Shown: positions 5,117-53,500 of the stretch, piece by piece
Layout: each line of letters opens with the position of its first letter
How positions within the stretch are numbered: position 1 is the first letter of the stretch
Assembly (NCBI GenBank): GCA_046348645.1
Contig: JAXMDU010000004.1
Location: forward strand, 32,645 to 96,644
DNA: 64,000 nt
Reading direction: 5' to 3'
DNA from: Alphaproteobacteria bacterium
GTDB taxonomy: Bacteria > Pseudomonadota > Alphaproteobacteria > JAXMDU01
The notes under the pieces: model-generated
The model's input: only the letters and a program-made list of their open reading frames with translations
The model's database searches: none
What the model was told of the DNA's origin: nothing
Translations under genes and position numbers: made by a program

Positions 5117-5245
5117 CACATCGTCCTCACCGCCGACCGGGCCGCGACGCGCCAACAAAAAACCCGCCCACTCACTGTCGGAGCGGCCGGGCGCTACGAC
5201 CTTTTAGCGGGTTGTTTAACGTGGCCGCAAGCCGGTCGGCTCAAA
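5117..5245 (-). promoter_or_regulatory. metZ leader with candidate SAM riboswitch-like element and hairpin plus U6 attenuator
   Basis: Minus-strand leader contains GCUUGC and CUAAAAGG boxes followed by a bulged GC stem ending in GGGCGGG and UUUUUU, then GAGGA and the start codon. metZ leaders in alphaproteobacteria commonly carry SAM-II; not verified by covariance model. Confidence 0.25.
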
Positions 5246-5301
5246 TCACCACGGTGCCGCTCTCATAGGACGCAGCGCCATGGCCGTCAAGCTGCACCCC
5301 A

Positions 5302-6410: not shown

Positions 6411-6484
6411 GCGGGTGTAGTTCAATGGTAGAACATCAGCTTCCCAAGCTGAGAACGTGGGTTCGATTCCCATCACCCGCTCCA
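6411..6484 (+). tRNA. tRNA-Gly (anticodon CCC)
   Basis: 74 nt cloverleaf GCGGGTGTAGTTCAATGGTAGAACATCAGCTTCCCAAGCTGAGAACGTGGGTTCGATTCCCATCACCCGCTCCA: 7-bp acceptor stem, GTTCGATTC T-loop, anticodon loop UUCCCAA, 3' CCA encoded. Confidence 0.9.
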
Positions 6485-8315: not shown

Positions 8316-9614
8316 ATGGCTCTGCCACCACGCATCGACTGGTCGACACCGCTTTGGCTGGCCTGCGGCAAGCGCACCCCCTTCGCGCGGGTCGATGGCC
8401 CGTTGAAGGCCTATGACGCCATTGCCCTGTCCGTGCCGGTCGTGCGCGCAATGACCGCAGGCCTGCGTTCGGGAGAATCACCCGATCTTGCGATCTGGGG
8501 CACGGTCGCACCCAATCTTGCCTACAGCAACATCGCCCGCGAGGTGTGGCTGGATGCCGGCCTTGATCCGCGCGTGCCGGCGTTCTCGACGGTGATGGCC
8601 TGTGCAACCAGCATGGCCGCCGCCTTTGCCGCGGCGGGGATGCTGGCGCAGGGCGCCGGAAGCCTGGCGCTGGTCGGCGGCGTCGAGACCATGAGCCGGG
8701 TCCAGGCGGGACTGGGCCAGAACCTGTCCGATGGGCTGCGCCGCGCCGCCCAGGCGCGCGGCTGGGGCGGGCGCATCAATGCCCTGCGCGCACTGCGGCT
8801 GGCCGATATCCGTCTCCAGGTCCAAAGCGTCAAGAACCGGACCACCGGCCTCAGCATGGGCGAGCATTGCGAGGAGATGGCCAAGACCTGGTCCATTCCG
8901 CGCGACGCGCAGGACGACATCGCGCTGGCCAGCCATCGCCATGCCATCGCAGCCCAGGAGCGCGGCTTCTTCGACGATCTGATCGTCGCGGTCGAGACGG
9001 TCGATCGGGACCCGCTGCCGCGGCGCGACACAAGCCGCGAGCGGCTGGCTGCCCTGAAGCCGGTTTTCGACCGCACCAGCGGCAAGGGCACGATCACGGC
9101 TGGCAACGCCTCGCCGCTCACCGACGGCGCCGCCGGGCTATGGGTCGCGACCGAGAGCGGTCTTGCGCGTCTTCCCGATTCCATTCCCCGGGTCCGGCTG
9201 CTGGATTGGGAGTTTGCCGCCGTCGACCTGAAGAACGAGGGGTTGCTGATGGCGCCGGCCTATGCCATCCCGCGCCTGCTGAATCGCCATGGCCTGGGCC
9301 ATGGCGATATCGCGTTGTGGGAAATCCACGAAGCCTTTGCGGCCCAGGTGCTTTGCAATCTGCGGGCGATCGAAAGCCCCGAATTCCTGCGCGATCGGGC
9401 CGGGGTCCTGGCGACACCCGCCGAGGTCCCGCGCGAGCGGATCAACCCCAATGGCGGCAGTATCGCCCTTGGGCATCCGTTCGGCGCAACGGGGGCGCGC
9501 ATTCTAAGCCAGGCGGTTCAAGCCCTGGCAACGATGCCATCCGGAAGCCGGGCCATCGTCAGCGTCTGCGCGGATGGCGGTCTGGGTGCCGTCGCCCTGC
9601 TGGTGCGACCGTGA
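8316..9614 (+). CDS. thiolase family acetyl-CoA C-acyltransferase
   Basis: RTPFARVDG N-terminus, active-site Cys context MACATSM, C-terminal GHPFGATGARIL; RBS GAGGGGAGA. Confidence 0.8.
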   Translation: MALPPRIDWSTPLWLACGKRTPFARVDGPLKAYDAIALSVPVVRAMTAGLRSGESPDLAIWGTVAPNLAYSNIAREVWLDAGLDPRVPAFSTVMACATSMAAAFAAAGMLAQGAGSLALVGGVETMSRVQAGLGQNLSDGLRRAAQARGWGGRINALRALRLADIRLQVQSVKNRTTGLSMGEHCEEMAKTWSIPRDAQDDIALASHRHAIAAQERGFFDDLIVAVETVDRDPLPRRDTSRERLAALKPVFDRTSGKGTITAGNASPLTDGAAGLWVATESGLARLPDSIPRVRLLDWEFAAVDLKNEGLLMAPAYAIPRLLNRHGLGHGDIALWEIHEAFAAQVLCNLRAIESPEFLRDRAGVLATPAEVPRERINPNGGSIALGHPFGATGARILSQAVQALATMPSGSRAIVSVCADGGLGAVALLVRP

Positions 9615-43064: not shown

Positions 43065-43997
43065 ATGACCGCCATGCCACCCGGGCGAATGGGTCTCACG
43101 CTGGGGCCGGTGCTGTTCCATTGGAATGGCACGCAGCTTTCCGATTTCTATGTCCGGATCGCGGACGAAGCGCCGGTCGAGCGGGTCTGCATCGGCGAGG
43201 TAGTCTGTTCGAAGCGCTTGCCAAGCGTCATCGACAGCCTGGCCCGGGCCATCGAACGCCTGGAACGGGGCGGCAAGGAGGTCATTCTTTCGACCCTTTC
43301 CCTCGTCACCCTGGAGAACGAAAGAAACCGGGTCACGGATCTGGTTCGCGACGCCGCCATGCCCGTCGAAGTGAACGATATTTCGTCCGTTCCGGCGGTT
43401 CAGGGACGCGCCTTCACGGTCGGCCCGTTCGTCAACATCTACAATGAAAGCACGCTCGGCTATTTTGCGCGCCATGGCGCGACGCGCATCTGCCTGCCGC
43501 CCGAACTGCCGCTGTCGTCCATCGCGGTCCTGGCCCGGACCGGCGCGCCGCTTGGCGTTGCCTGCGAGGTTTTCGGCTTCGGGCGTGTGCCGCTTGCCAT
43601 GTCAGGCCGCTGCTATCACGCCCGCCTGCACGGGACGCGCAAGGATGCCTGCCAGTTCGTGTGCGAAAAGGACGCCGACGGGCGGCCCGTCGATACGCTG
43701 GACGGGCAGCCGTTCCTGGCGGTGAACGGCGTCATGACCATGTCGCAGAGCTGCGTCAACCTGATCGAGGATGTCCGCGACATCGCGGGCGCCGGGATCG
43801 ATTCGATCCGCCTGTCGCCCCAGACCTGCGACATGGTCCGGGTCGCGAAGATTTTCCGCGCCGCCATCGATGGCGAGCGGGACCCGGCCGCCGCGCGCCA
43901 GGACCTGGCCGCGCTCATTCCCTTCGCGCCCTTTTCGAACGGGTTCCTGCACGGGACGCGCGGCGTCGCCTATGTCGGTCCCGCAGAGGCCGGCTGA
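43065..43997 (+). CDS. ubiV: U32-family O2-independent ubiquinone hydroxylase subunit UbiV
   Basis: U32 family (YhbV-like), cysteines CEVFGFGRVPLAMSGRCYHARLHGTRKDACQFVC; last 20 codons lie in the left direct repeat. Confidence 0.7.
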   Translation: MTAMPPGRMGLTLGPVLFHWNGTQLSDFYVRIADEAPVERVCIGEVVCSKRLPSVIDSLARAIERLERGGKEVILSTLSLVTLENERNRVTDLVRDAAMPVEVNDISSVPAVQGRAFTVGPFVNIYNESTLGYFARHGATRICLPPELPLSSIAVLARTGAPLGVACEVFGFGRVPLAMSGRCYHARLHGTRKDACQFVCEKDADGRPVDTLDGQPFLAVNGVMTMSQSCVNLIEDVRDIAGAGIDSIRLSPQTCDMVRVAKIFRAAIDGERDPAAARQDLAALIPFAPFSNGFLHGTRGVAYVGPAEAG

Positions 43998-44217
43998 AAC
44001 GCCCTATTCCGCCGCCTTCTGGCGGAACTTCGAGAGCGAGCCCGAATGCATGATCTTGCCGTTGAGATTACGGCCGATCATGCCTTCCACCATCTGCGCG
44101 CAACCGATCAGCTTGTCGAGATCGATGCCGGTCTCGATGCCAAGCTCGGCGCACAGGAACACCATGTCCTCGGTGCAGATGTTGCCGGCCGCGCCCTTGT
44201 GGCCGGCGAAGGGACAG
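43937..44217. repeat. left copy of about 281-bp direct repeat (ubiV 3' end, spacer, 3' end of HMG-CoA lyase-like gene)
   Basis: Near-identical to 48104-48386 with a few 1-2 nt indels/substitutions; flanks the low-GC insertion. Confidence 0.85.
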
Positions 44218-47200
44218 CCGCCGAGCTCACCCTCAGCATCCCATCAACCCAGGAGCACAATAACCCCAGACTCTACTTGTGAATACGATCAAAGCCAGGA
44301 GCACTTCAGCGTCACAGAATGAGAATTCTGTGGAAGCACACTTTTTACGCTTCTTCGCTCCGTTTTTTCGTTGTTGCAACCCACCGCCGTGACGCGCCTC
44401 CTGCCTTGCCTCGCTTTTTCTTCCCTCCCAGATTCACAGCCCCCTTACACTTCGGGTAGTCAGCGCATCCATAGAATGGGCCGAAACGTCCGTTGCGAAG
44501 CTTAGTAGGCCCACCGCATTCAGGGCATGGAGGCCCATCCTTCTGCAGTGACGGATCGGACGGGGAGCTTTTTCGTCCAGACGTGCCCCGCGCACTGTCG
44601 TGCCAGCCGCAGCCTTCCTCATCCTCGCATGTAAAGTACGGGCCGTAGCGGCCCTCCGCATAATATGTTCGCGAGTTGCAGTTCGGGCATCGCGGATTTT
44701 CTGCCTCGGCTACCGTCGAAGCTGCCTCCGCTCGCGCGATCCCAATCCTCTTCGAGACGAATGCAGCAACCTGTTCTGCGAACCCTTCGCTTTCGGCCCT
44801 GGTCATGAACTCATCTGTTCGAGACGTATGTGACAAGGGATTGAGAGAGCCCGACCAGATGACGCGATTATCAATCAAGACGATCTTCTCATGAATGTCG
44901 CGCCGGCAATCGACGACCACCCCAATTCCTTCCAAAGCATCCAAGGCTTGTTTCCCAAGCTCCTCGGGAATTGAGCCGTTGAACCGGGGTGGCCTCGTTA
45001 CACACCGAATTGCGACTCCGTCGCCGATTTTTGTTCTGAACAGGTCTCCATAGGACGCTACACGCTCCGGCGTTATGAAGCCGGAATACATGACAATCGA
45101 CCGCTCCGCCCGGTTCATATCCACCAGACAAGCGTCGGCGAATGTTTTGGAGTGAAACAGCCCGAGCTTCTCTGCATCCAGATCAAGCTCAACAATGCCC
45201 ATGAGGTCTTTCAGATCGCGTTCAATCGGACGCAACGCCATCACTTCGGAAGCGTCGATCACACGACCATGTTCCTGCGCAGTGTGCAGGATACCTCTAA
45301 GCAACGCGGTGCTGGGCAGATGCATATCGAGATAGGTCAGATTGGCCAGCACCAAGAGGTGCTCTTGAGCCCGGCTGACGGCGACGTTCATGAGTCGGGC
45401 ACCGACGTGCTTAGGAGGGATACCCTGCACAAACAACCCAATCCTCCGACTTGGCCCAATGCTTTCAGGGATATCGAGGATCATCATGCGCTTTTCGTCG
45501 CCTTGATAACGATGGACTGTACCGGTCGCGGCGAGTTGGGCCACTGGCTCCATATCCCCAATAAGCTTCTGCAACAGTTTGGCTTGTGCTGCATAGGGCG
45601 TGCATACACCGAGCGCGCTTGAGCTATCCAGAAATCCGTTTGATGCTAAATAGCCGACAAGATTTCGGATGAGAAGCGCATTCAGAAGGTTGAATCGGGA
45701 TTTAAAGATGTTTCGGCTTTCGAACGGCCATAGTCTGGACGTATCGATGATGGTAAGCGCCCCGTCATATGGCGCAGGCGGTCGTGGGCCGTTGGGCCGA
45801 TGGCGTTCTTTGGCCGTTGTAAGCCTTCCTTGATACATGTCTGTCGCGATGAGGCCGCATATCTCGTCCGTCATGCGATACTGAGTATCGAGCAGCGCAT
45901 ATCTGGGATCTTCGCTCTTTCCGTCGATGCCCGCCGACTCAAAGACATCCTGCCCAATGAGATCGTGGATTGCCTGTTGGCGGCTCGGCAAGATCGGCGG
46001 GAGCTGTCGGAAATCACCAGAAACGATCACCCGTTCCGTTGACAGGCCCGCAGCGAAATAAAGCGCGGGCAGAAGCACCATCGACGCTTCGTCAATCACG
46101 ACAACATCAAACCGGCCTATGTCACGTGCCTGGAGGTACGACTTTGCAACAGTTGTCCCGATCACGCGCGCCTCACGCATGATCGACGCTTCCATTTCCG
46201 CTAACCGCCGCGCAATTTCCTGAAGTTCGGCCACAAGCGGCTGACGTTCACCATCAATCGCCTGTCTGTCCCTTTCAAGCTGTTGCCGGTCTTGTACAGA
46301 GAGCTGGGATGCCAAGGATTCAGCCGAAGATCGCACTTCGTTACGTTTGTTCTCTAATGTCTTGGCTTCGGCCGTCCCGTTTCGAACAATTGCTTCCTGA
46401 CGCGCTATTTCCGATTCGGCACGTCGATAGTCGCTTATGATTATCTCATCGGAACGAAGAAAAACGCGACGCAACACGCCTGCGCTTTTCCGCTGTTGCA
46501 GCTCAGCTTTGCAGTCCTGAATTTGTTGCTGCGCCTTTTCATAGGATGCGGCAGCAGTCTTTATGGCGTTAAGGCATGTGTTCAGTTGCTGATTGAGGGA
46601 TGTCAGCTTGCTTTCGGTCCTATCAAGCCGCGCAAAGAGCTGAAGCTTTTCGTTTATAGATGTCGCTTTGGCGTCGAACAGCGCCACTTGTTCTTCCAGC
46701 TCGTGTTGTCGCTCCCTGAGTCCCTTCGACAACCGTTCGATAATACCGTCTGTCGTCACATAGGATGCGTACTCGTTCTTAAGCTCCGGAAGGACAATGT
46801 TGCCGATGCGAACAACTTTGCCTTCTTCAAACGCGGCATGTTTGAGATGCTCCAGATGACGGCAAAGCTTATAGATAAGCTGATCAACAGCCTGGTTCGT
46901 GTTGGAGCAGACGAGGATACGCTTTCCAGCGTCAAATGCGGCTTGAATGCCGACGGACAGTGTTTGCGTTTTTCCCGTCCCCGGAGGTCCCCACAGGTAT
47001 GAAATGCTGTGCTCCAGCATCAAGTGCAGTGCAGCGTTCTGGCTATCATTCAGATCGTGAGGCGGCACGCCGATTGGCGACACTTCGGAGTTGTGGATTT
47101 CCTTGGATACGACGCTATCCGCCACTGATGCAGATAGATTCAGTTCGCCCTTGCCCACCTGATCAAGGCGGTCTTTCAGTGCTTCGATCAGAGCCGTGTT

Positions 47201-48103
47201 GTCGATGAGAAGTATGCAACGTCGGATTGATGGTCCCAGGTTGCCATCCAGCGAAATAAGTATGGTCCCTTCCGATATTGATACGATTTGCCCTCTGCTA
47301 CGTCGGCCATCGACTTCAATTTCTATTCGCGCTTCCTCGAAAATCTCCGCTTCTTCAGAGAACGGGAATACATAGATAGGTTGGCCCGCCTGCGTGTCTA
47401 CGACTTTGCCGCGCTCCAGTTCATAACGGCGACTGCCGCTACCTTCTCTTCGCATTTCGCTTATCAGGGCGTCGAGCGCGAGAACATAGCGCTGTATGTT
47501 TGTGGAATCCTGCGGCAGATCGATAACCAGATCGGTGTCCAGAGCCGGTTGGTAGGCATCAGGCTTTCCCCTAACCCCTGGAGCAGCGATCCCGGTGAAA
47601 TGTTGCGGTATCCTCCTGTCATCAGGTTGCTCGTCCGGGATAGACGGAGTTGATACTTCAGCAGGCCTTTGGCTCGCCGAAGCGAATGATGCCGCTGGGT
47701 CTGAAGATGTACGGGAAGGTACGGGCCGGTTCTCCGGGCGCACGCCAACAGGCTGCCCCTCAAACAAGTGGCCGGTTGGCGCAGGGCCTTCCCTTGATTG
47801 GTTCTCTATTGCTGTGAGGCGTTCTTCAACTCGGCTACGAAGCCTCTTTGCCCGGTCGGTCTTCCGGTGTTCAAGCTCATCGAGAAGGCTCCGCATCGTG
47901 GCCCGCTCTTCGCCTTTTTCGGCGAAAAGCTTCTCAAGCTGGACTATTCCATGCTGGATGAAGGTCCGCTTCATTCTTGGTCGCCTGCCTCAAGCGCCGT
48001 TCCTTTGCTCCCAGGAAAACGTATGCCACTTCGGATGGTAAGAATTTCTCAAGACCATAGTGTTGCCCCCTAGAATAGTGCCGACGGCGAGGTAACGCTT
48101 CTT
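44218..48103. mobile_element. putative horizontally acquired insertion (about 3.9 kb, lower GC), no integrase/transposase, single cargo gene
   Basis: GC about 47-52% in sampled lines versus about 60-75% in flanks; bounded by the 281/283-bp direct repeats; interrupts the 3' region of the HMG-CoA lyase-like gene. Confidence 0.55.
44345..47974 (-). CDS. 1209-aa fusion: Upf1-like SF1 helicase + PLD (HKD) nuclease domain + two topoisomerase-type C4 zinc ribbons
   Basis: Helicase motifs WGPPGTGKTQT, VCSNTNQAVDQL, VVVIDEASM, SGDFRQLPP, QYRM, VHRYQGDEKRMMILD, NVAVSRAQEHL, with about 250-aa coiled-coil insert between Walker A and B; HKD motif HEKIVLIDNRVIWSGSLN; ribbons CPNC...C..C and CPEC...C..C; K/R-rich tail. 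Confidence 0.75.
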   Translation of the reverse strand: MKRTFIQHGIVQLEKLFAEKGEERATMRSLLDELEHRKTDRAKRLRSRVEERLTAIENQSREGPAPTGHLFEGQPVGVRPENRPVPSRTSSDPAASFASASQRPAEVSTPSIPDEQPDDRRIPQHFTGIAAPGVRGKPDAYQPALDTDLVIDLPQDSTNIQRYVLALDALISEMRREGSGSRRYELERGKVVDTQAGQPIYVFPFSEEAEIFEEARIEIEVDGRRSRGQIVSISEGTILISLDGNLGPSIRRCILLIDNTALIEALKDRLDQVGKGELNLSASVADSVVSKEIHNSEVSPIGVPPHDLNDSQNAALHLMLEHSISYLWGPPGTGKTQTLSVGIQAAFDAGKRILVCSNTNQAVDQLIYKLCRHLEHLKHAAFEEGKVVRIGNIVLPELKNEYASYVTTDGIIERLSKGLRERQHELEEQVALFDAKATSINEKLQLFARLDRTESKLTSLNQQLNTCLNAIKTAAASYEKAQQQIQDCKAELQQRKSAGVLRRVFLRSDEIIISDYRRAESEIARQEAIVRNGTAEAKTLENKRNEVRSSAESLASQLSVQDRQQLERDRQAIDGERQPLVAELQEIARRLAEMEASIMREARVIGTTVAKSYLQARDIGRFDVVVIDEASMVLLPALYFAAGLSTERVIVSGDFRQLPPILPSRQQAIHDLIGQDVFESAGIDGKSEDPRYALLDTQYRMTDEICGLIATDMYQGRLTTAKERHRPNGPRPPAPYDGALTIIDTSRLWPFESRNIFKSRFNLLNALLIRNLVGYLASNGFLDSSSALGVCTPYAAQAKLLQKLIGDMEPVAQLAATGTVHRYQGDEKRMMILDIPESIGPSRRIGLFVQGIPPKHVGARLMNVAVSRAQEHLLVLANLTYLDMHLPSTALLRGILHTAQEHGRVIDASEVMALRPIERDLKDLMGIVELDLDAEKLGLFHSKTFADACLVDMNRAERSIVMYSGFITPERVASYGDLFRTKIGDGVAIRCVTRPPRFNGSIPEELGKQALDALEGIGVVVDCRRDIHEKIVLIDNRVIWSGSLNPLSHTSRTDEFMTRAESEGFAEQVAAFVSKRIGIARAEAASTVAEAENPRCPNCNSRTYYAEGRYGPYFTCEDEEGCGWHDSARGTSGRKSSPSDPSLQKDGPPCPECGGPTKLRNGRFGPFYGCADYPKCKGAVNLGGKKKRGKAGGASRRWVATTKKRSEEA

Positions 48104-48386
48104 GAACGGGTTCCTGCACGGACGCATGGCGTCGCCTATGTCGGTCCCGCAGAGGCCGGCTGAAATCGCCCTATTCCGCCGCCTTCTGGCGGAACTTCGA
48201 GAGCGAGCTCCGAATGCATGATCTTGCCGTTGAGATTACGGCCGATCATGCCTTCCACCATCTGCGCGCAACCGATCAGCTTGTCGAGATCGATGCCGGT
48301 CTCGATGCCAAGCTCGGCGCACAGGAACACCATGTCCTCGGTGCAGATGTTGCCGGCCGCGCCCTTGTGGCCGGCGAAGGGACAGC
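48104..48386. repeat. right copy of about 283-bp direct repeat
   Basis: Duplicate of 43937-44217; contains a degenerate copy of the ubiV 3' end and the 3' end of the HMG-CoA lyase-like gene. Confidence 0.85.
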
Positions 48387-49129: not shown

Positions 49130-49327
49130 GGCCGATTCTCCTGTTGCCGGTCGCTCCTGGTGCGGAAATGCGAAGGCCTGAAAAAGTAAGGACTTCGTCT
49201 GAGGATCGATGTTAGCGCAATCGGCGGGGCGCGCAATCATGACCGCCGGCCTTGCCGGCCAGCCGGTTTCAGCCCAAGATCGTGCCCCGTTCGTACCAGA
49301 CAGCAACAGTGACAGTCGGAGGAGCAT

Positions 49328-50488
49328 GTGAGCGAGCGACCAGCGATTGTCAGCGCCTTTGAGCACCCGTTGCGAAAAGGCCCCGACTACAGCGCCCTGC
49401 GATTCATCGGCGAAAGTGCGGCAGGCGCGCTGGCCGATGCCGGGCTGAAGCCCGGCGATATCGACGGGCTGGCAACCGCCGGCGAAACGATGGCGGTCAA
49501 CTATATTGCGGAATACCTGAACCTGAAGCCGCGCTGGTTCGATTCGACGTCGATCGGCGGATCGTCGTTCCTGTCGCACATCATGCACGCGTCGGATGCG
49601 ATCCGTCAGGGCAAGGCGCGCGCGGTGCTGCTGTGCTATGGTAGCACGGCGCGATCGTCGGCGGCGGCGCTGGGCGGCAGCGCCCGCACCCTGGTCATCG
49701 ACGCCCAGGGCGTCGGCGATTCCGACTATTACTACACACCCTATGGCGTCAACCTGGTATCGCAATACGCGCTGGTGGCCAGGCGCCACATGCACGAATA
49801 CGGCACCACCCGCGAGCAGCTGGCCGAGATTGCCGTCACCTGCCGCACCCATGCGGCGCTCAACCCGCTGGCCCGCTTTCGCGACCCGATCACGGTCGCC
49901 GATGTCGTGAAGTCGCGCCCGGTCGCCGAACCTCTGCACCTGCTGGATTGCTGCGTGATCACCGATGGCGGCGGCGCGGTCATCGTCGCCGCGCCCGAGG
50001 TCGCCCGCAACTGCAAGAAGAAGCCGATCCGGGTGCTGGGCGGATCGGAAGCCGCCGCCCACCGCGAGGGCGGGCACCATCGCCTGCTTGACGTGGCGGC
50101 CAGGCAATCGGGCCCGGCCGCCTTTGCCGCGACCGGATTGAAGCCATCGGATGTCGATTTCTGCATGATCTATGACAGCTTCACCATCACGGTGATGACG
50201 ACGCTCGAGGGGCTTGGCTTCTGCAAGCCGGGCGAAGGCGGCGCCTTTGTGCAGGGCGGGCGCATCAGGCTAGGTGGCGCGCTTCCCATCAATCCCGATG
50301 GCGGTGCGCTTTCCAATCACCACCCGGGACGGCGCGGCATCTTCCTGGCCATCGAGGCAGTGCGCCAGTTGCGTGGCGAAGGCGGGCCCCGGCAGGTCAA
50401 GGATGCCAGGATCGCCCTCTGTCACGGAACCGGCGGCTACCTTTCTGACCGCCACAGCGGTGTCACTTTGCTGTTGGGAGCTGACTGA
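49328..50488 (+). CDS. thiolase-like protein (SCP-x/non-condensing thiolase type)
   Basis: GTG start after GGAGGA; thiolase-like blocks; translationally coupled to the downstream DUF35 gene (TGATG overlap). Confidence 0.7.
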   Translation: MSERPAIVSAFEHPLRKGPDYSALRFIGESAAGALADAGLKPGDIDGLATAGETMAVNYIAEYLNLKPRWFDSTSIGGSSFLSHIMHASDAIRQGKARAVLLCYGSTARSSAAALGGSARTLVIDAQGVGDSDYYYTPYGVNLVSQYALVARRHMHEYGTTREQLAEIAVTCRTHAALNPLARFRDPITVADVVKSRPVAEPLHLLDCCVITDGGGAVIVAAPEVARNCKKKPIRVLGGSEAAAHREGGHHRLLDVAARQSGPAAFAATGLKPSDVDFCMIYDSFTITVMTTLEGLGFCKPGEGGAFVQGGRIRLGGALPINPDGGALSNHHPGRRGIFLAIEAVRQLRGEGGPRQVKDARIALCHGTGGYLSDRHSGVTLLLGAD

Positions 50489-50898
50489 TGGACAAGGCAA
50501 CGAAACATCCCGCCCCGCCGATGACCCCGGAGTCGGCGCCCTATTGGAAGGCGGCGAGCAAGGGCGAGCTGCTGATCGGCTGGTGCGAGGACTGCAAGAA
50601 GCCGCACCACGCGCCCCAGGGGGTGTGCCCGTTCTGCTGGTCGTCGAAGACCCGCGCCAAGCCGGCCAGTGGACGCGGCAAGGTGAATTCCTTCACGGTG
50701 ATCCACCAGACCGCAATGCCCGATTTTGTCGGCCTGGTGCCCTTTGTGGTTGCCTATGTCGAGCTTGAAGAGGGCGTGTCGCTGGTCAGCAACATCGTCG
50801 AGTGCGAATGGAGCAAGGTCAGGATCGACATGCCGGTAGTCGCAACCTTCGAGACGGTAGCCGAGAACGTCGGCATCCCGCTGTTCAAGCCGGCCTGA
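50488..50898 (+). CDS. DUF35 Zn-ribbon/OB-fold protein (thiolase partner)
   Basis: CEDCKKPHHAPQGVCPFC zinc ribbon followed by OB-fold-like C-terminus; usual pairing with SCP-x-type thiolases. Confidence 0.65.
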   Translation: MDKATKHPAPPMTPESAPYWKAASKGELLIGWCEDCKKPHHAPQGVCPFCWSSKTRAKPASGRGKVNSFTVIHQTAMPDFVGLVPFVVAYVELEEGVSLVSNIVECEWSKVRIDMPVVATFETVAENVGIPLFKPA

Positions 50899-50933
50899 GC
50901 GCGACGAAGCGACGAAACCGGGATGGACGAAAA

Positions 50934-50968
50934 TGGGGCGGCCGCCTGGGGCCGCCCCGCCCTTTTCG
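50934..50968. terminator. bidirectional rho-independent terminator between convergent genes
   Basis: GGGGCGGCC gcctg GGCCGCCCC followed by gcccTTTTCG on + and aTTTTCG on -. Confidence 0.6.
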
Positions 50969-52021
50969 TCAGCTTGCGCCTTTCTTGGCCTCGCTCAGAA
51001 CGAAGTCGAGCATCTGCTGGGCGGGATAGCCCTTCGGCGTCATCTCCTTCACCCATTCGTCCCAGACGGGTTGCCCCCCGACACGGGCGAATTCCTCGCG
51101 CATGGCGGGCGGGATCACCACCGTCCTAACACCCCGTTTCTTGAAGGCATCCTCGGCCTTGTCTTCTTCGGCCTGCAGGGCGTCGCTCTGGGCTTTGTGG
51201 GCCGCGGGGGTGACATCGAGAATCACCTTCTTGTACTGGGGCGGCAGCTTGTTGAAGGCATCGCGATTGAAATCGACATTCGAGATCGACACGCCGAGCG
51301 CCAGGCCCTTCGTGTACCACTTGCTGATCTCGTGAAGCTTGTAGACCTCGAAGGCGTAATAGGCGAAACCGGCGGCGTCGATCACGCCGCGCTCCAGGCT
51401 GCCATAGACCTCGGGGCTGGTGACCGAGGTGGCCACGGCGCCAAGCTTGGCCATCGCCGCGCCCTGACCGCCGATCGCGCGCACCCGCAGGCCTTTCCAG
51501 TCGGAAAGCTTTTCCGGCGCCTTGCCGGTGCCCATGAACTCGTAGGACGGAATGACATTCGACAGGCCGTAATTGACGTTCCAGACATCGAAATCCCGCT
51601 TCACGAACGCATGCCGATGGAAGATATCCGAGACGCGTGTCTGGGTTCTCAGGTCATCGAGCGGAAGGAAGGGCAGGCTCAGCACCGCAAGGCCGGGCTG
51701 CTTGCCCGGCGCGAAGGCGGGCACCACCCATCCCGCTTCATAGGCCCCGAGCTTGAGGCCGTCCAGGACTTCCTTTTCAGGGGACAGGGTCGCGCCATAG
51801 ACGACCTCGATCCTGAAATTGCCGTTCGTCTCGGCGGCGACAAGTTCCGAGAACTTGTCCATCGAGATCGAAACGGCGCGTGGCTTGCCATAGGCGGCCA
51901 GCCGCCAGTGGACCTTGGGCCCGTCGACGGCGGCCTGGGCCGCCGCCGCAGAGCCGAAAACAAGCGCCGCCCCAAGCGTGATCGCCGCGACGGTCATACC
52001 AAAACGATAATGCAAGAACAT
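50969..52021 (-). CDS. periplasmic solute-binding protein, TRAP DctP-like family (orphan)
   Basis: Start MFLHYRFGMTVAAITLGAALVFGSAAAAQA after GGAGGA; fourth SBP paralog. Confidence 0.55.
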   Translation of the reverse strand: MFLHYRFGMTVAAITLGAALVFGSAAAAQAAVDGPKVHWRLAAYGKPRAVSISMDKFSELVAAETNGNFRIEVVYGATLSPEKEVLDGLKLGAYEAGWVVPAFAPGKQPGLAVLSLPFLPLDDLRTQTRVSDIFHRHAFVKRDFDVWNVNYGLSNVIPSYEFMGTGKAPEKLSDWKGLRVRAIGGQGAAMAKLGAVATSVTSPEVYGSLERGVIDAAGFAYYAFEVYKLHEISKWYTKGLALGVSISNVDFNRDAFNKLPPQYKKVILDVTPAAHKAQSDALQAEEDKAEDAFKKRGVRTVVIPPAMREEFARVGGQPVWDEWVKEMTPKGYPAQQMLDFVLSEAKKGAS

Positions 52022-52208
52022 GGCAGATTTTCCTCCGTGCGCCTTTGATCTGATTGTTGTGATTTGCAGAGCACGTTGCCGGTTGTCCGGCAGAGCCGAT
52101 CCCGACATTGCATCCATGATTGCCCAAATGCTGGAAAAGTCGAGGGGAAATGCGCGGCCCTCAATTCATGCAATTCGGTCGCACATGCAAGATGGCGACT
52201 GGAAATGG

Positions 52209-52237
52209 AAAAAGCCCGCCACGGGTCAGCGCGGCGG
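52209..52237. repeat. 29-bp direct repeat copy 1 (AAAAAGCCCGCCACGGGTCAGCGCGGCGG), degenerate terminator
   Basis: Identical 29-mer recurs at 52989-53017; together they bracket a roughly 750-bp lower-GC segment. Confidence 0.8.
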
Positions 52238-52401
52238 CATGAACGGCCGAACATTCGCCGTCGCCTTCATCGAAGGACTGCCAAAACCGCAACCAGAAAA
52301 GGAGGAGAAGCAATCCGAAATACGAGACACCAACAAAGTCGCCTGACGCCCCCGCTCACCGCGGCACTGTCAGCCGATTACCCTCTCCGTACATGTTTTG
52401 C

Positions 52402-52869
52402 CTACCGCGCCCCTGAAAGCTGCAAGAGTCCGGACCAAGCGTTCACGATAACGACAAACATTCCGCAAAGTATGACAATAAACAAACCGGTCGTTACGGG
52501 CCAATCATACCAAAAACTGACGCGATCACGGTTTACTTCGCCGTAGACCTCTCGCGCATCTTTCTCAAATCTACCGTATAGGCGATTCAACCTCTCTCTT
52601 TTCTCTTTCATTGAATCCGTCGCGTAGACGATCACCATCAACCACATCTCCGCCACACCGATAGCGGCAATCGTAAGAATGGTCTTCCCCCAGCACGTCA
52701 GAGCGAACGGTGTCCGTGTCAAAAAGTACAGAGCGGCAAAGAGCAGCAGGGCATAATTCGTGATCTTCCAAGTCCTATCCTTCATGGCCGCGATATGTGC
52801 GATGGCGTCGCGGTGAATCATGTCGTACGCCCGCTGCGTTTCGACCTGTTCGGGTTGCTTTTCCTCCAT
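52402..52869 (-). CDS. small membrane protein of unknown function, 155 aa, three predicted TM helices, low GC
   Basis: Start MEEKQPEQ after AAGGAG; hydrophobic stretches ITNYALLLFAALYFL, ILTIAAIGVAEMWLMVIVYA, TTGLFIVILCGMFVVIVNAW; GC about 48%. Confidence 0.55.
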   Translation of the reverse strand: MEEKQPEQVETQRAYDMIHRDAIAHIAAMKDRTWKITNYALLLFAALYFLTRTPFALTCWGKTILTIAAIGVAEMWLMVIVYATDSMKEKRERLNRLYGRFEKDAREVYGEVNRDRVSFWYDWPVTTGLFIVILCGMFVVIVNAWSGLLQLSGAR

Positions 52870-52985
52870 GGCCGACTCCTTCAAATGTATCACCTTGAAT
52901 AGGCTACCGAGGATTAAGCCGTGTTTGGAAAAATTCCAGCGCGCCAATGTTGCAAAGGCGAGAGGCCCACATGCCCGAGAGCGCC

Positions 52986-53030
52986 AATAAAAAAGCCCGC
53001 CACGGGTCAGCGCGGCGGGCTTTTGTCTTT
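52986..53030 (-). terminator. rho-independent terminator for the MaoC-like gene; includes 29-bp repeat copy 2
   Basis: GCCCGCC...GGCGGGC stem; minus-strand RNA ends in UUUUUUAUU, plus strand has TTTTGTCTTTC. Confidence 0.75.
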
Positions 53031-53044
53031 CGTCTGTCAGCCGA

Positions 53045-53500
53045 TCAACGGGGCCGCTTCAGCATCATGCCGGCGCGCTTCGTGCTCATCACGCACTGGT
53101 TGTGCTGGTTGAAGCCCTCGTGCAGGCATTCGACCACGCCGCGATCGGGTCGCGTCTTGCTTTCCCGCTTGCCGATGATCGTGGTCTGGCCACGCAGCGT
53201 GTCGCCCGGGAAGACCGGGTTCGGGAACTTTGTGTCCGCAAAGTACAGATTGCCAAGCGTCGTGCCGAGGGTCAGCTCGGTCACCTGCAGGGCGGTGACG
53301 AACGACATCACATAGAGCGGGTTGATCTCGACCCGCTTGAACCGCGCATGCTGGGCCGCCCACTCTTCGTCCATGTAAGTGGGTTCGGTTTCCATGCACA
53401 TGCATGTGTACCAGATGCTGTCCGGCAGGGTCATCGTCCGCGTCACCTCGTGGCGATAGACCTTGCCGACCTCAAACTCCTCGAAATAGAGACCTGCCAT
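53045..53500 (-). CDS. MaoC-like (R)-specific enoyl-CoA hydratase / hotdog-fold dehydratase
   Basis: Start MAGLYFEEFEVGKVYRHEVTRT; 152 aa. Confidence 0.7.
   Translation of the reverse strand: MAGLYFEEFEVGKVYRHEVTRTMTLPDSIWYTCMCMETEPTYMDEEWAAQHARFKRVEINPLYVMSFVTALQVTELTLGTTLGNLYFADTKFPNPVFPGDTLRGQTTIIGKRESKTRPDRGVVECLHEGFNQHNQCVMSTKRAGMMLKRPR

What the first reader, a model, noticed from the sequence alone, without database searches (positions are those of the whole stretch)
52209..53017. Second low-GC insert: small three-helix membrane protein flanked by a duplicated 29-bp terminator sequence
Seen: AAAAAGCCCGCCACGGGTCAGCGCGGCGG occurs at 52209-52237 and 52989-53017; the second copy is an intact terminator just after the MaoC-like gene, the first is a slightly degenerate copy. 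Between them lies about 750 bp of lower-GC DNA encoding a 155-aa protein with three hydrophobic helices and a good RBS. A second motif CTGTCAGCCGAT also recurs at both ends. Same architecture as the helicase insert only 4 kb away. Inference: an independently acquired cargo gene, possibly a membrane effector, toxin or immunity protein.
Basis: partly seen in the sequence, partly recalled or inferred. Interest (0 to 1): 0.6.

Follow-up and report, generated by a model that had tools for sequence, protein, structure and literature searches.

The report
Terminator-flanked accessory small membrane-protein gene
A single extra gene for a small three-helix membrane protein of unknown function sits between two metabolic genes, bracketed by an exact duplicate of the upstream gene's transcription terminator; close relatives lack it or carry it elsewhere, so it is a real strain-variable insert of modest interest.

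Summary
These are the only two copies in 64 kb, with none expected by chance. Between them lies a minus-strand unit with its own AAGGAG ribosome-binding site, a 155-aa three-TM protein gene (52402-52869) and a terminator.

It is compositionally foreign: GC3 is 0.64 against 0.81-0.85 in the neighbours. It is under purifying selection (dN/dS 0.24).

Three contigs of a close relative (MaoC 97% identical) show an empty site, MaoC-267 nt-DctP. Another lineage carries the same hairpin-plus-gene block after DctP instead. There is no transposase, no terminal inverted repeats, no integron sites and no phage or plasmid match. I infer recombination at the terminator, not transposition.

The protein belongs to a sparse, unnamed, metagenome-only family of about 100 clusters. 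These genes stand alone in unrelated contexts. The family consensus matches Pfam 8xMP end to end but below threshold (26.7 of 30 bits). A toxin, immunity or defence role is untested: PADLOC, PHROGs and fold searches were uninformative.

The helicase-PLD insert 4 kb away has the same architecture, with about 290-nt flanking repeats.

Verdict: a real accessory islet, ordinary in kind, function unknown.

The parts
53045..53500 (-). MaoC-like (mesaconyl-CoA hydratase-type) dehydratase gene. It is the upstream neighbour whose terminator is duplicated.
   Evidence: Pfam MaoC_dehydratas 7e-14 and MC_hydratase 9.5e-13. Homology to the empty-site relative L018 ends exactly at its stop codon, 53045.
53034..53045 (.). 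12-mer CTGTCAGCCGAT, copy 2, in the MaoC 3' UTR and overlapping the stop codon by 1 nt.
   Evidence: Marginal significance.
52990..53018 (-). 29-nt repeat, copy 2 (T2). This is the core of the intact, bidirectional-looking intrinsic terminator of MaoC (stem 52995-53020, with A-run and T-run flanks).
   Evidence: RNA fold -25.6 kcal/mol, z = -6. It is positionally orthologous to the hairpins after MaoC in L001 and L018.
52870..52989 (-). 5' region of the small gene (presumed own promoter) with the RBS AAGGAG at 52876-52881.
   Evidence: Read from the sequence. Conserved with L001 and L003 from the hairpin onward. No sigma-70 consensus hit, so the promoter is inferred.
52402..52869 (-). CDS of the 155-aa three-TM membrane protein (NCBI MAG locus U1E97_01740, 'hypothetical protein').
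   Evidence: dN/dS 0.24 against the L001 orthologue. About 103 remote homologues.
52238..52401 (-). 3' spacer unique to the window (56% GC). It contains 12-mer copy 1 at 52367-52378. Homology to L001/L003 stops at 52394, 8 nt past the stop codon.
   Evidence: (no counterpart in L001).
52209..52237 (-). 29-nt repeat, copy 1 (T1). A shortened terminator hairpin (8-bp stem + U5) that ends the small-gene transcript 16 nt before the conserved DctP upstream region.
   Evidence: Homology of the DctP upstream region to L001/L004 begins at 52193/52190.
50969..52208 (-). DctP-family TRAP solute-binding protein gene (CDS 50969-52021) with its upstream region. It is the downstream neighbour.
   Evidence: Pfam DctP 6e-34. 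Orthologues in L001, L004 and L018.

Best explanation
This is a strain-variable, self-contained single-gene islet in the MaoC-DctP intergenic spacer of an alphaproteobacterial MAG.

The unit on the minus strand is: MaoC terminator T2, about 120 nt of 5' region with a strong RBS, a 155-aa inner-membrane protein gene, a 164-nt spacer, and T1. T1 is an exact 29-nt copy of the core of T2.

Shown:
- The unit is absent from the closest relatives.
- It sits elsewhere in another lineage.
- It is compositionally foreign.
- It encodes a protein under purifying selection.

Inferred mechanism of arrival: recombination at or next to the terminator hairpin. Candidates are a Campbell-type single crossover of a circular fragment carrying a copy of the hairpin, or template switching at the hairpin. 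Either duplicates the target. Classical transposition or phage-type integration is not indicated.

Inferred consequence: MaoC keeps its terminator. The new gene gets a terminator of its own, and the DctP promoter stays insulated from read-through.

The protein is predicted N-in/C-out with three TM helices and long helical extensions. All invariant residues (K30, W34, Y39, R91, plus T37, N38 and R93) lie on the cytoplasmic juxtamembrane faces of helices 1 and 2. The family is a distant, sub-threshold relative of Pfam 8xMP.

My best guess, at low confidence, is that it forms a homo-oligomeric membrane assembly with a role in conflict, such as immunity, exclusion or a defence effector. The grounds are its patchy solitary distribution, its foreign composition and a mosaic allele.
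For: Repeat and terminators.

Empty site: L018, L019 and L020 (MaoC 97% aa identical) have ACAD-MaoC-267 nt-DctP-HMGL with one hairpin and no small gene.

Alternative position: in L001 the block homologous to window 53025-52394 (87% identity) lies after DctP. It is preceded by a second copy of the MaoC terminator with about 24 nt of MaoC 3'UTR-like flank: a 64-nt repeat at 83% identity.

Foreign composition: GC3 0.64 against 0.81-0.85. Homologues in five other contigs are also lower in GC than their hosts.

Separate history: dS is 0.25 for the small gene, 0.60 for DctP and 0.51 for ChsH2 in the same genome pair, Fisher p = 7e-4.

Real gene: dN/dS 0.24. There are 103 homologues at E<1e-3 with conserved motifs.

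Independent assembly: Logan contig L017 spans MaoC-T2-gene-spacer at 99.7% identity.

No mobility machinery: only the one credible ORF, no terminal inverted repeats or integron core sites, no hit in phages, plasmids or viral contigs.

Parallel case: the helicase insert is flanked by a 290-nt duplication of the target and is also absent from L018.

Family link: the family consensus matches 8xMP at E = 5.6e-6, covering profile positions 3-135 of 136.

Mosaic allele: L001 and L003 are 96-100% identical in the flanks but 64-82% identical across codons of about 61-146.
Against: - The recombination mechanism is inferred only. No circular form, recombinase or donor was seen.
- Outside the 29-mer the flanks of T1 and T2 are not significantly similar. 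The duplication could therefore also be a local copy or gene conversion of a hairpin.
- The L001 copy is not followed by a second hairpin.
- The T1 junction is not confirmed by an independent assembly: L017 stops at 52274, and exact look-ups of DctP found nothing.
- Insertion cannot be distinguished from ancestral presence with loss in the L018 lineage.
- For function there is no support from PADLOC, PHROGs or NCBIfam. There is no conserved neighbour. Fold matches are generic only.
- The 8xMP match is below Pfam's cut-off.
Confidence: 0.55

Rival explanations
1. The gene is ancestral to this group. The L018-type relatives lost it by recombination between the two direct terminator copies, a loop-out deletion that leaves one hairpin. 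No recent insertion occurred in the window lineage.
For: Direct 29-nt repeats are the substrate for such a deletion, and the L018 empty site retains exactly one hairpin at this position. The gene is present in two of the three sampled lineages. In L001 the hairpin copy before the gene carries MaoC-3'UTR-like flank. That points to an older MaoC-T-gene arrangement like the window's.
Against: GC3 of 0.64 against 0.81-0.85 means the gene was foreign at some point. Its dS is about half that of the flanking core genes between the same two genomes, which does not fit pure vertical co-inheritance. It also occupies different positions in the two carrier lineages.
Confidence: 0.25
2. It is the passenger of a conventional mobile element. 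Candidates are a MITE or IS derivative, an IS200/IS605-like palindrome-associated element whose end hairpins are in direct orientation, or an integron-type cassette mobilised in trans.
For: A hairpin-cargo-hairpin layout with both hairpins in direct orientation resembles IS200/IS605-type ends (own knowledge). One remote homologue, in L025, lies next to a Y1_Tnp gene.
Against: T2 is the native MaoC terminator, present at the same place in relatives that lack the gene there. There are no terminal inverted repeats and no GTTRRRY/RYYYAAC sites at the boundaries. There is no transposase or integrase ORF in the unit, and no other copy of the hairpin in 64 kb. The gene has no match in phage, plasmid or viral collections.
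Confidence: 0.07
3. It is an assembly artefact. A metagenome assembler threaded a foreign or strain-variant fragment into the contig through a shared 29-nt k-mer.
For: The window is from a MAG. The repeat length of 29 equals a common assembler k-mer size (own knowledge). The T1 junction has no independent confirmation.
Against: An independent Logan assembly (L017) reproduces MaoC-T2-gene-spacer and differs at 3 positions inside MaoC. The same hairpin-to-gene junction exists in L001 and L003 from other samples. The gene shows purifying selection, with lineage-level divergence from the L001 copy.
Confidence: 0.03
4. The protein is a functional accessory of the neighbouring TRAP solute-binding protein, a DctQ-like small membrane subunit or anchor, and not conflict-related cargo.
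For: It stays next to the DctP gene in both carrier lineages: upstream in the window, downstream in L001. This DctP gene has no adjacent DctQ/M genes.
Against: There is no DctQ or other transporter Pfam hit. It is transcriptionally separated from DctP by a terminator. DctP orthologues in L018 and L004 function without it. None of the remote homologues examined is beside a DctP gene.
Confidence: 0.05

Closest known systems
Pfam PF24838, 8xMP (octameric membrane protein family)
   Same: Same size class (profile 136 positions, proteins of about 140-160 aa). The family consensus aligns end to end (residues 19-145 to profile 3-135/136) at E = 5.6e-6. The window protein aligns over 30-119 to profile 14-111, and 6 of 41 family members hit it at E<0.01.
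   Different: All scores are below Pfam's 30-bit gathering cut-off: 13.5 bits for the window protein and 26.7 for the consensus. Compositional TM hits to unrelated families score only a little lower. I found no literature on 8xMP, so neither its function nor the octameric state can be transferred.
Strain-specific genomic islets flanked by direct repeats of the target (Campbell-type or att-like duplications)
   Same: The cargo is bracketed by direct repeats that duplicate the 3' end of the upstream gene. There is an empty site in relatives, the base composition is foreign, and neighbouring genes are left intact. The same pattern occurs at the helicase insert 4 kb away.
   Different: No integrase or recombinase and no tRNA target. 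The repeat is just a 29-nt terminator core, and the cargo is a single 468-nt gene. The same block is also found translocated within the locus in another lineage.
Small multi-TM conflict proteins: CBASS 2TM/SLATT-type effectors, three-TM pore-forming-colicin immunity proteins (E1 type), prophage exclusion proteins
   Same: A small, solitary, patchily distributed inner-membrane protein. It has three TM helices with N-in/C-out topology, as recalled for E1-type immunity proteins (own knowledge). The allele is mosaic between near-identical strains. The consensus gives a faint hit to a PADLOC '2TM effector' model, E = 0.039.
   Different: No significant match to any SLATT, holin, immunity or defence model. 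There is no cognate cyclase, toxin or prophage nearby. The conserved residues are cytoplasmic juxtamembrane, not intramembrane.

Membership tests
Rho-independent (intrinsic) terminator | G+C-rich stem-loop immediately followed by a U-run on the transcribed strand, placed after a stop codon | tested here: met
   T2 has a 14-bp stem, -25.6 kcal/mol and U6, 26 nt after the MaoC stop. T1 has an 8-bp stem, -15.4 kcal/mol and U5, 164 nt after the small-gene stop. Termination itself was not measured.
Pfam 8xMP (PF24838) | Whole-protein score at or above the curated gathering cut-off (30 bits) | tested here: not met
   Window protein 13.5 bits, E = 0.064. Best member 1.7e-4. Family consensus 26.7 bits.
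Pfam 8xMP (PF24838) | Colinear match over the whole profile, that is the same domain architecture | tested here: met
   Consensus residues 19-145 match profile positions 3-135 of 136. P0016 and P0033 match similarly.
Pfam 8xMP (PF24838) | Homo-octameric assembly in the membrane | not testable with these tools
   Only a monomer model could be made. No multimer prediction or experiment was possible.
Insertion sequence / MITE | Terminal inverted repeats, a short target-site duplication, and a transposase (or multiple genomic copies) | tested here: not met
   No terminal inverted repeats at either candidate pair of ends. No transposase ORF. Only one copy in 64 kb.
Integron gene cassette | attC site with R''/R' core sites (RYYYAAC / GTTRRRY) at the cassette boundary, and an integrase or cassette array nearby | tested here: not met
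   The only GTTRRRY/RYYYAAC match in 52150-53100 is inside the CDS at about 52585-52591. The hairpins are canonical terminators.
Integrase-mediated genomic island / prophage | Tyrosine or serine recombinase gene within the element, and att repeats at a tRNA gene or gene 3' end | tested here: not met
   The 752-nt interval holds only the 155-aa gene. There is no phage or plasmid similarity. Direct repeats are present but no recombinase.
Known anti-phage defence proteins (PADLOC models, including CBASS 2TM/SLATT-type effectors) | Significant match to a defence-system model, and/or linkage to the system's other genes | tested here: not met
   No PADLOC hit for the protein. The consensus gives only E = 0.033-0.039. 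Neighbours of homologues have no PADLOC hits. No SLATT Pfam hit.
TRAP transporter small membrane subunit (DctQ) | Match to the DctQ family, four TM helices, and co-transcription with DctM/DctP | tested here: not met
   No DctQ Pfam hit. Three hydrophobic segments. A terminator lies between it and DctP.

The most novel reading that the evidence does not exclude
The small gene and the helicase-PLD gene 4 kb away may be two examples of a recombinase-free way of adding single-gene cargo. In this reading, circularised fragments carrying a copy of a gene's 3' end or terminator integrate by a single crossover. That duplicates the target, so neighbouring genes and their terminators stay intact. The cargo would be conflict genes. 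The three-TM protein would then be a new standalone oligomeric membrane defence or immunity factor, sister to 8xMP, that diversifies by allelic mosaicism.
Probability: 0.15. Interest if true: 0.55.

Novelty: new member of a known kind. Interest (0 to 1): 0.3.

Why it matters
If the reading is right, the locus shows how a bacterium can take up a single foreign gene into a tight metabolic gene cluster without disturbing it. The upstream terminator is duplicated. The newcomer is therefore transcriptionally insulated on both sides, and the direct repeats in principle allow clean excision.

It also flags an unnamed family of about 100 clusters of small three-TM proteins. The family has a strictly conserved cytoplasmic K-x3-W-x2-TNY...R-x-RL signature. 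Its only database relative is the equally obscure Pfam 8xMP.

None of this overturns current understanding. The value is as a well-documented case, with occupied, empty and translocated states, and as a candidate family for functional screening.

Tried and rejected
- The afdb50 library was unavailable.
- A profile search of solved structures found nothing meaningful.
- Literature searches for 8xMP, PF24838 and 'octameric membrane protein' found nothing relevant.
- The genome-contig scan with alignment A1 failed because there was no conserved stretch. The scan was then spent on DctP and returned only relatives at 44% identity or less. The metagenome scan with DctP gave one short close contig, L004, where DctP is followed directly by an ACAD gene.
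- The viral-contig scan was negative. tblastn against phages and plasmids was negative.
- Exact look-ups of the window's MaoC and DctP proteins found nothing, so the T1 junction is unverified.
- I tested whether the duplication extends beyond the 29-mer and 12-mer, including a possible degenerate third hairpin in the spacer. Flank alignments are not better than shuffles, so I rejected this.
- Rfam hits in the region are terminator-driven noise below threshold.
- The flanking imperfect repeat around homologue P0004 in L024 is too weak to count.
- PADLOC on neighbours of homologues was negative.

Full report
**1. The observation**

The 29-mer AAAAAGCCCGCCACGGGTCAGCGCGGCGG occurs exactly at 52209-52237 and 52990-53018. 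Allowing three mismatches there are still only these two copies in 64 kb, and none in 100 shuffles. The generic hairpin GCCCGCC-N-GGCGGGC occurs only once, at T2. It is therefore a local duplication, not a genome-wide repeat family.

Every gene in this stretch is on the minus strand, so that is the relevant strand:
- T2 (52990-53018 plus flanks) folds into a 14-bp stem followed by U6, at -25.6 kcal/mol and z = -6.
- T1 has lost the outer two pairs and folds as an 8-bp stem plus U5, at -15.4 kcal/mol.

The 12-mer CTGTCAGCCGAT is exact at 52367-52378 and 53034-53045. The 208-nt spacer has three other chance matches of 12 nt or more elsewhere in the window. The flank-to-flank comparison gives only p of about 0.05. 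The 12-mer lies 15 nt from T2 but 129 nt from T1. I treat it as a possible trace, not as evidence.

**2. What lies between the repeats**

On the minus strand the order is:
- MaoC stop at 53045-53047;
- T2;
- about 120 nt of 5' region;
- AAGGAG at 52876-52881, 6 nt before the ATG;
- the CDS, 52869 to 52402, 155 aa;
- a 164-nt spacer;
- T1;
- 16 nt later, the conserved upstream region of the DctP gene.

The CDS has 51.7% GC and GC3 of 0.64. MaoC, ACAD, DctP, ChsH2 and the thiolase-like gene have 61-66% GC and GC3 of 0.81-0.85. No sigma-70 consensus promoter was found, so the promoter is inferred from the arrangement and from conservation with L001 and L003.

**3. Comparative evidence**

The protein is identical to NCBI MAG protein U1E97_01740, 'hypothetical protein', from an Alphaproteobacteria bacterium. 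An Alpha-proteobacteria SAM riboswitch in the window agrees with that taxon. Three states of the locus were recovered.

(a) Empty site. L018 (14 kb, JGI), L019 and L020 come from a relative whose MaoC is 97% identical in protein. They read ACAD-MaoC-267 nt-DctP-HMGL. A single hairpin follows MaoC and there is no small gene.

(b) Window state: MaoC-T2-gene-T1-DctP.

(c) Translocated state. L001, L002 and L003 carry a block homologous to window 53025-52394, covering the hairpin, 5' region, gene and 8 nt, at 87% identity. It lies after DctP and is followed by a PIN-Phd toxin-antitoxin pair, a SnoaL-like gene and ChsH2. MaoC keeps its own terminator copy. In L001 the two terminator copies form a 64-nt repeat at 83% identity. 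The repeat includes about 24 nt of MaoC-3'UTR-like flank. That suggests the block once lay directly after MaoC, as in the window.

An independent Logan assembly (L017, 952 nt) reproduces window 53225-52274 with three clustered differences inside MaoC. The MaoC-T2-gene-spacer join is therefore not an artefact of the MAG assembly. The T1 junction could not be independently confirmed.

**4. Evolutionary signals**

Between the window and L001 the small gene has dN/dS of 0.24, so it is a real, constrained gene. Its dS is 0.25. The flanking DctP and ChsH2 genes have dS of 0.60 and 0.51 in the same genome pair, Fisher p = 7e-4. The gene therefore shares a more recent ancestor than its surroundings do. 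That fits lateral exchange between lineages and insertion at different points.

L001 and L003 are 96-100% identical through the 5' region, the first 60 or so codons and the downstream DNA. Across codons of about 61-146, from TM2 to the C-terminus, they are only 64-82% identical. This is a recombinant, mosaic allele.

**5. How it got there (inference)**

Nothing in the unit can move it:
- There is one credible ORF.
- There are no terminal inverted repeats at either candidate pair of ends, and no integron core sites at the boundaries.
- There is no match in phage genomes, plasmids or viral contigs.

T2 is the native MaoC terminator, because relatives have a hairpin at the same place without the gene.

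The helicase-PLD gene 4 kb away is MkoA/MkoC-like by PADLOC and has GC3 of 0.58. It has the same layout on a larger scale. A direct repeat of about 290 nt (43931-44218 and 48098-48386, 92-100% identical) duplicates the last 217 nt or so of the HMGL-like gene plus the 3' end of the convergent peptidase-U32 gene. Both neighbouring genes therefore stay intact, and L018 lacks the insert.

Target duplication without a recombinase is what a single-crossover (Campbell-type) integration of a circular fragment carrying a copy of the target would give. Template switching during repair would give the same result. The same repeats would allow clean loop-out, which would produce the L018-type empty site.

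I cannot tell gain in the window lineage from loss in the L018 lineage. Composition and dS argue that the gene was foreign and has moved.

**6. The protein**

An exhaustive HMMER search of 1.84 billion representatives found 103 homologues at E<1e-3, nearly all 125-180 aa. A word-indexed search of 5.8 billion clusters found only singleton, unnamed metagenomic proteins.

Alignment A1 shows invariant K30, Y39 and R91. W34 and T37 are near-invariant, and N38, R93 and L94 are frequent. Together they form a K-x-QQW-x2-TNY motif just before TM1 and an S-x4-R-x-RL motif just after TM2.

Hydropathy gives TM segments at about 39-59, 62-84 and 124-149. Counting K and R in the translated sequence gives 6 in the N-terminal region, 2 in the TM1-TM2 loop and 10 in the TM2-TM3 loop. 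That predicts an N-in/C-out topology, with all conserved residues at the cytoplasmic membrane face.

The AF2 model (mean pLDDT 72.9) consists of three long helices: 8-50, 59-100 and 123-153. Fold searches returned only generic helical bundles.

The only Pfam lead is 8xMP (PF24838):
- the window protein gives E = 0.064;
- 6 of 41 members hit at E<0.01;
- the family consensus gives E = 5.6e-6 and 26.7 bits, against a 30-bit cut-off, covering profile positions 3-135 of 136.

I read this as a probable distant sister family and not as membership. I found no literature on 8xMP.

PADLOC, PHROGs and NCBIfam gave nothing significant.

Seven other genomic contexts of homologues are all different, and the gene is always solitary:
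- next to a PIN-Phd pair;
- porin and unknown genes;
- ArsR and LigA;
- HTH_8 and Peptidase_S74;
- NYN and Y1_Tnp;
- PmbA.

The gene is lower in GC than its host contig in every case examined.

**7. Verdict**

'Acquired cargo gene' is supported by the occupied, empty and translocated states, by composition and by dS.

The functional label of effector, toxin or immunity protein is not supported by any test. It remains a reasonable guess based on the patchy solitary distribution, the foreign composition and the mosaic allele.

In kind this is an ordinary strain-variable islet carrying a hypothetical membrane protein. Three features give it modest interest:
- the exact duplication of a terminator as the flanking repeat;
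- the parallel with the neighbouring helicase insert;
- the unnamed conserved protein family.

Noticed in passing
window 43931-48386: The 1209-aa helicase-PLD-zinc-ribbon gene (44345-47974, minus strand; PADLOC MkoA 6e-54 and MkoC 3e-41; GC3 0.58) is a single-gene insert. It is flanked by direct repeats of about 290 nt (43931-44218 and 48098-48386, 92-100% identical). The repeats duplicate the last 217 nt or so of the HMGL-like gene plus the 3' end of the convergent peptidase-U32 gene. Relative L018 has HMGL directly followed by U32, with no insert and no integrase.
   Followed up: partly
window 49142-50968: The plus-strand pair of a thiolase-like gene (49328-50488) and a ChsH2-like zf/OB gene (50488-50898) lies between DctP and HMGL. 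It is absent from L018, which has a 248-nt spacer there, but present in L001. Its GC is native-like and no flanking repeats were found. It is a third indel difference within 10 kb.
   Followed up: partly
L001:2350-3480 vs L003:1-1133: The two contigs are near-identical (96-100%), except for about 250 nt inside the small gene (codons of about 61-146) at 64-82% identity. This is a mosaic or recombinant allele of the membrane protein.
   Followed up: partly
L001:98-1070: In the lineage with the translocated gene, the MaoC terminator is followed by about 970 nt of unrelated DNA before the DctP upstream region. It contains a 15-nt tandem repeat, CCGTCAYTGTAATTC x2, at 123-152. It also has two small ORFs (68 and 53 aa) with no Pfam hit.
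   Followed up: no
L001:3138-3832; L002:744-1438; L003:789-1133: A PIN-PhdYeFM toxin-antitoxin pair lies convergent and immediately downstream of the small gene in L001 and L002. L003 shows only the start of the PIN-like gene before the contig ends. A SnoaL_4 gene follows the pair in L001 and L002. None of these is present in the window.
   Followed up: no
L025:2923-4169: Remote homologue P0014 of the small protein lies next to a 224-aa Y1_Tnp (IS200/RAYT-type HUH transposase) gene. This is a single case of linkage to hairpin-acting mobility machinery.
   Followed up: no
L024:7779-7851 and 8867-8939: Imperfect direct repeats (74-84% over about 73 nt, spacing 1088) bracket homologue P0004 and the 3' end of a Peptidase_S74 gene. 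The similarity is too weak (blastn E of about 0.005) to count as a second example of target duplication.
   Followed up: partly
window 52239-52346 (+): A 35-codon plus-strand ORF (MNGRTFAVAFIEGLPKPQPEKEEKQSEIRDTNKVA) fills most of the window-specific spacer between the small gene and T1. It has no evident RBS. It could be a relic of an earlier neighbour or a chance ORF.
   Followed up: no
L004:1233-1703: In another relative (DctP 80% identical) the DctP gene is followed after 27 nt by an acyl-CoA dehydrogenase gene on the same strand. This is a fourth arrangement of this neighbourhood.
   Followed up: no
window 5184-5262 (-) and 6411-6484 (+): An Alpha-proteobacteria SAM riboswitch aptamer (73 bits) and tRNA-Gly(CCC). 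Both are consistent with the alphaproteobacterial origin and are unrelated to the finding.
   Followed up: no
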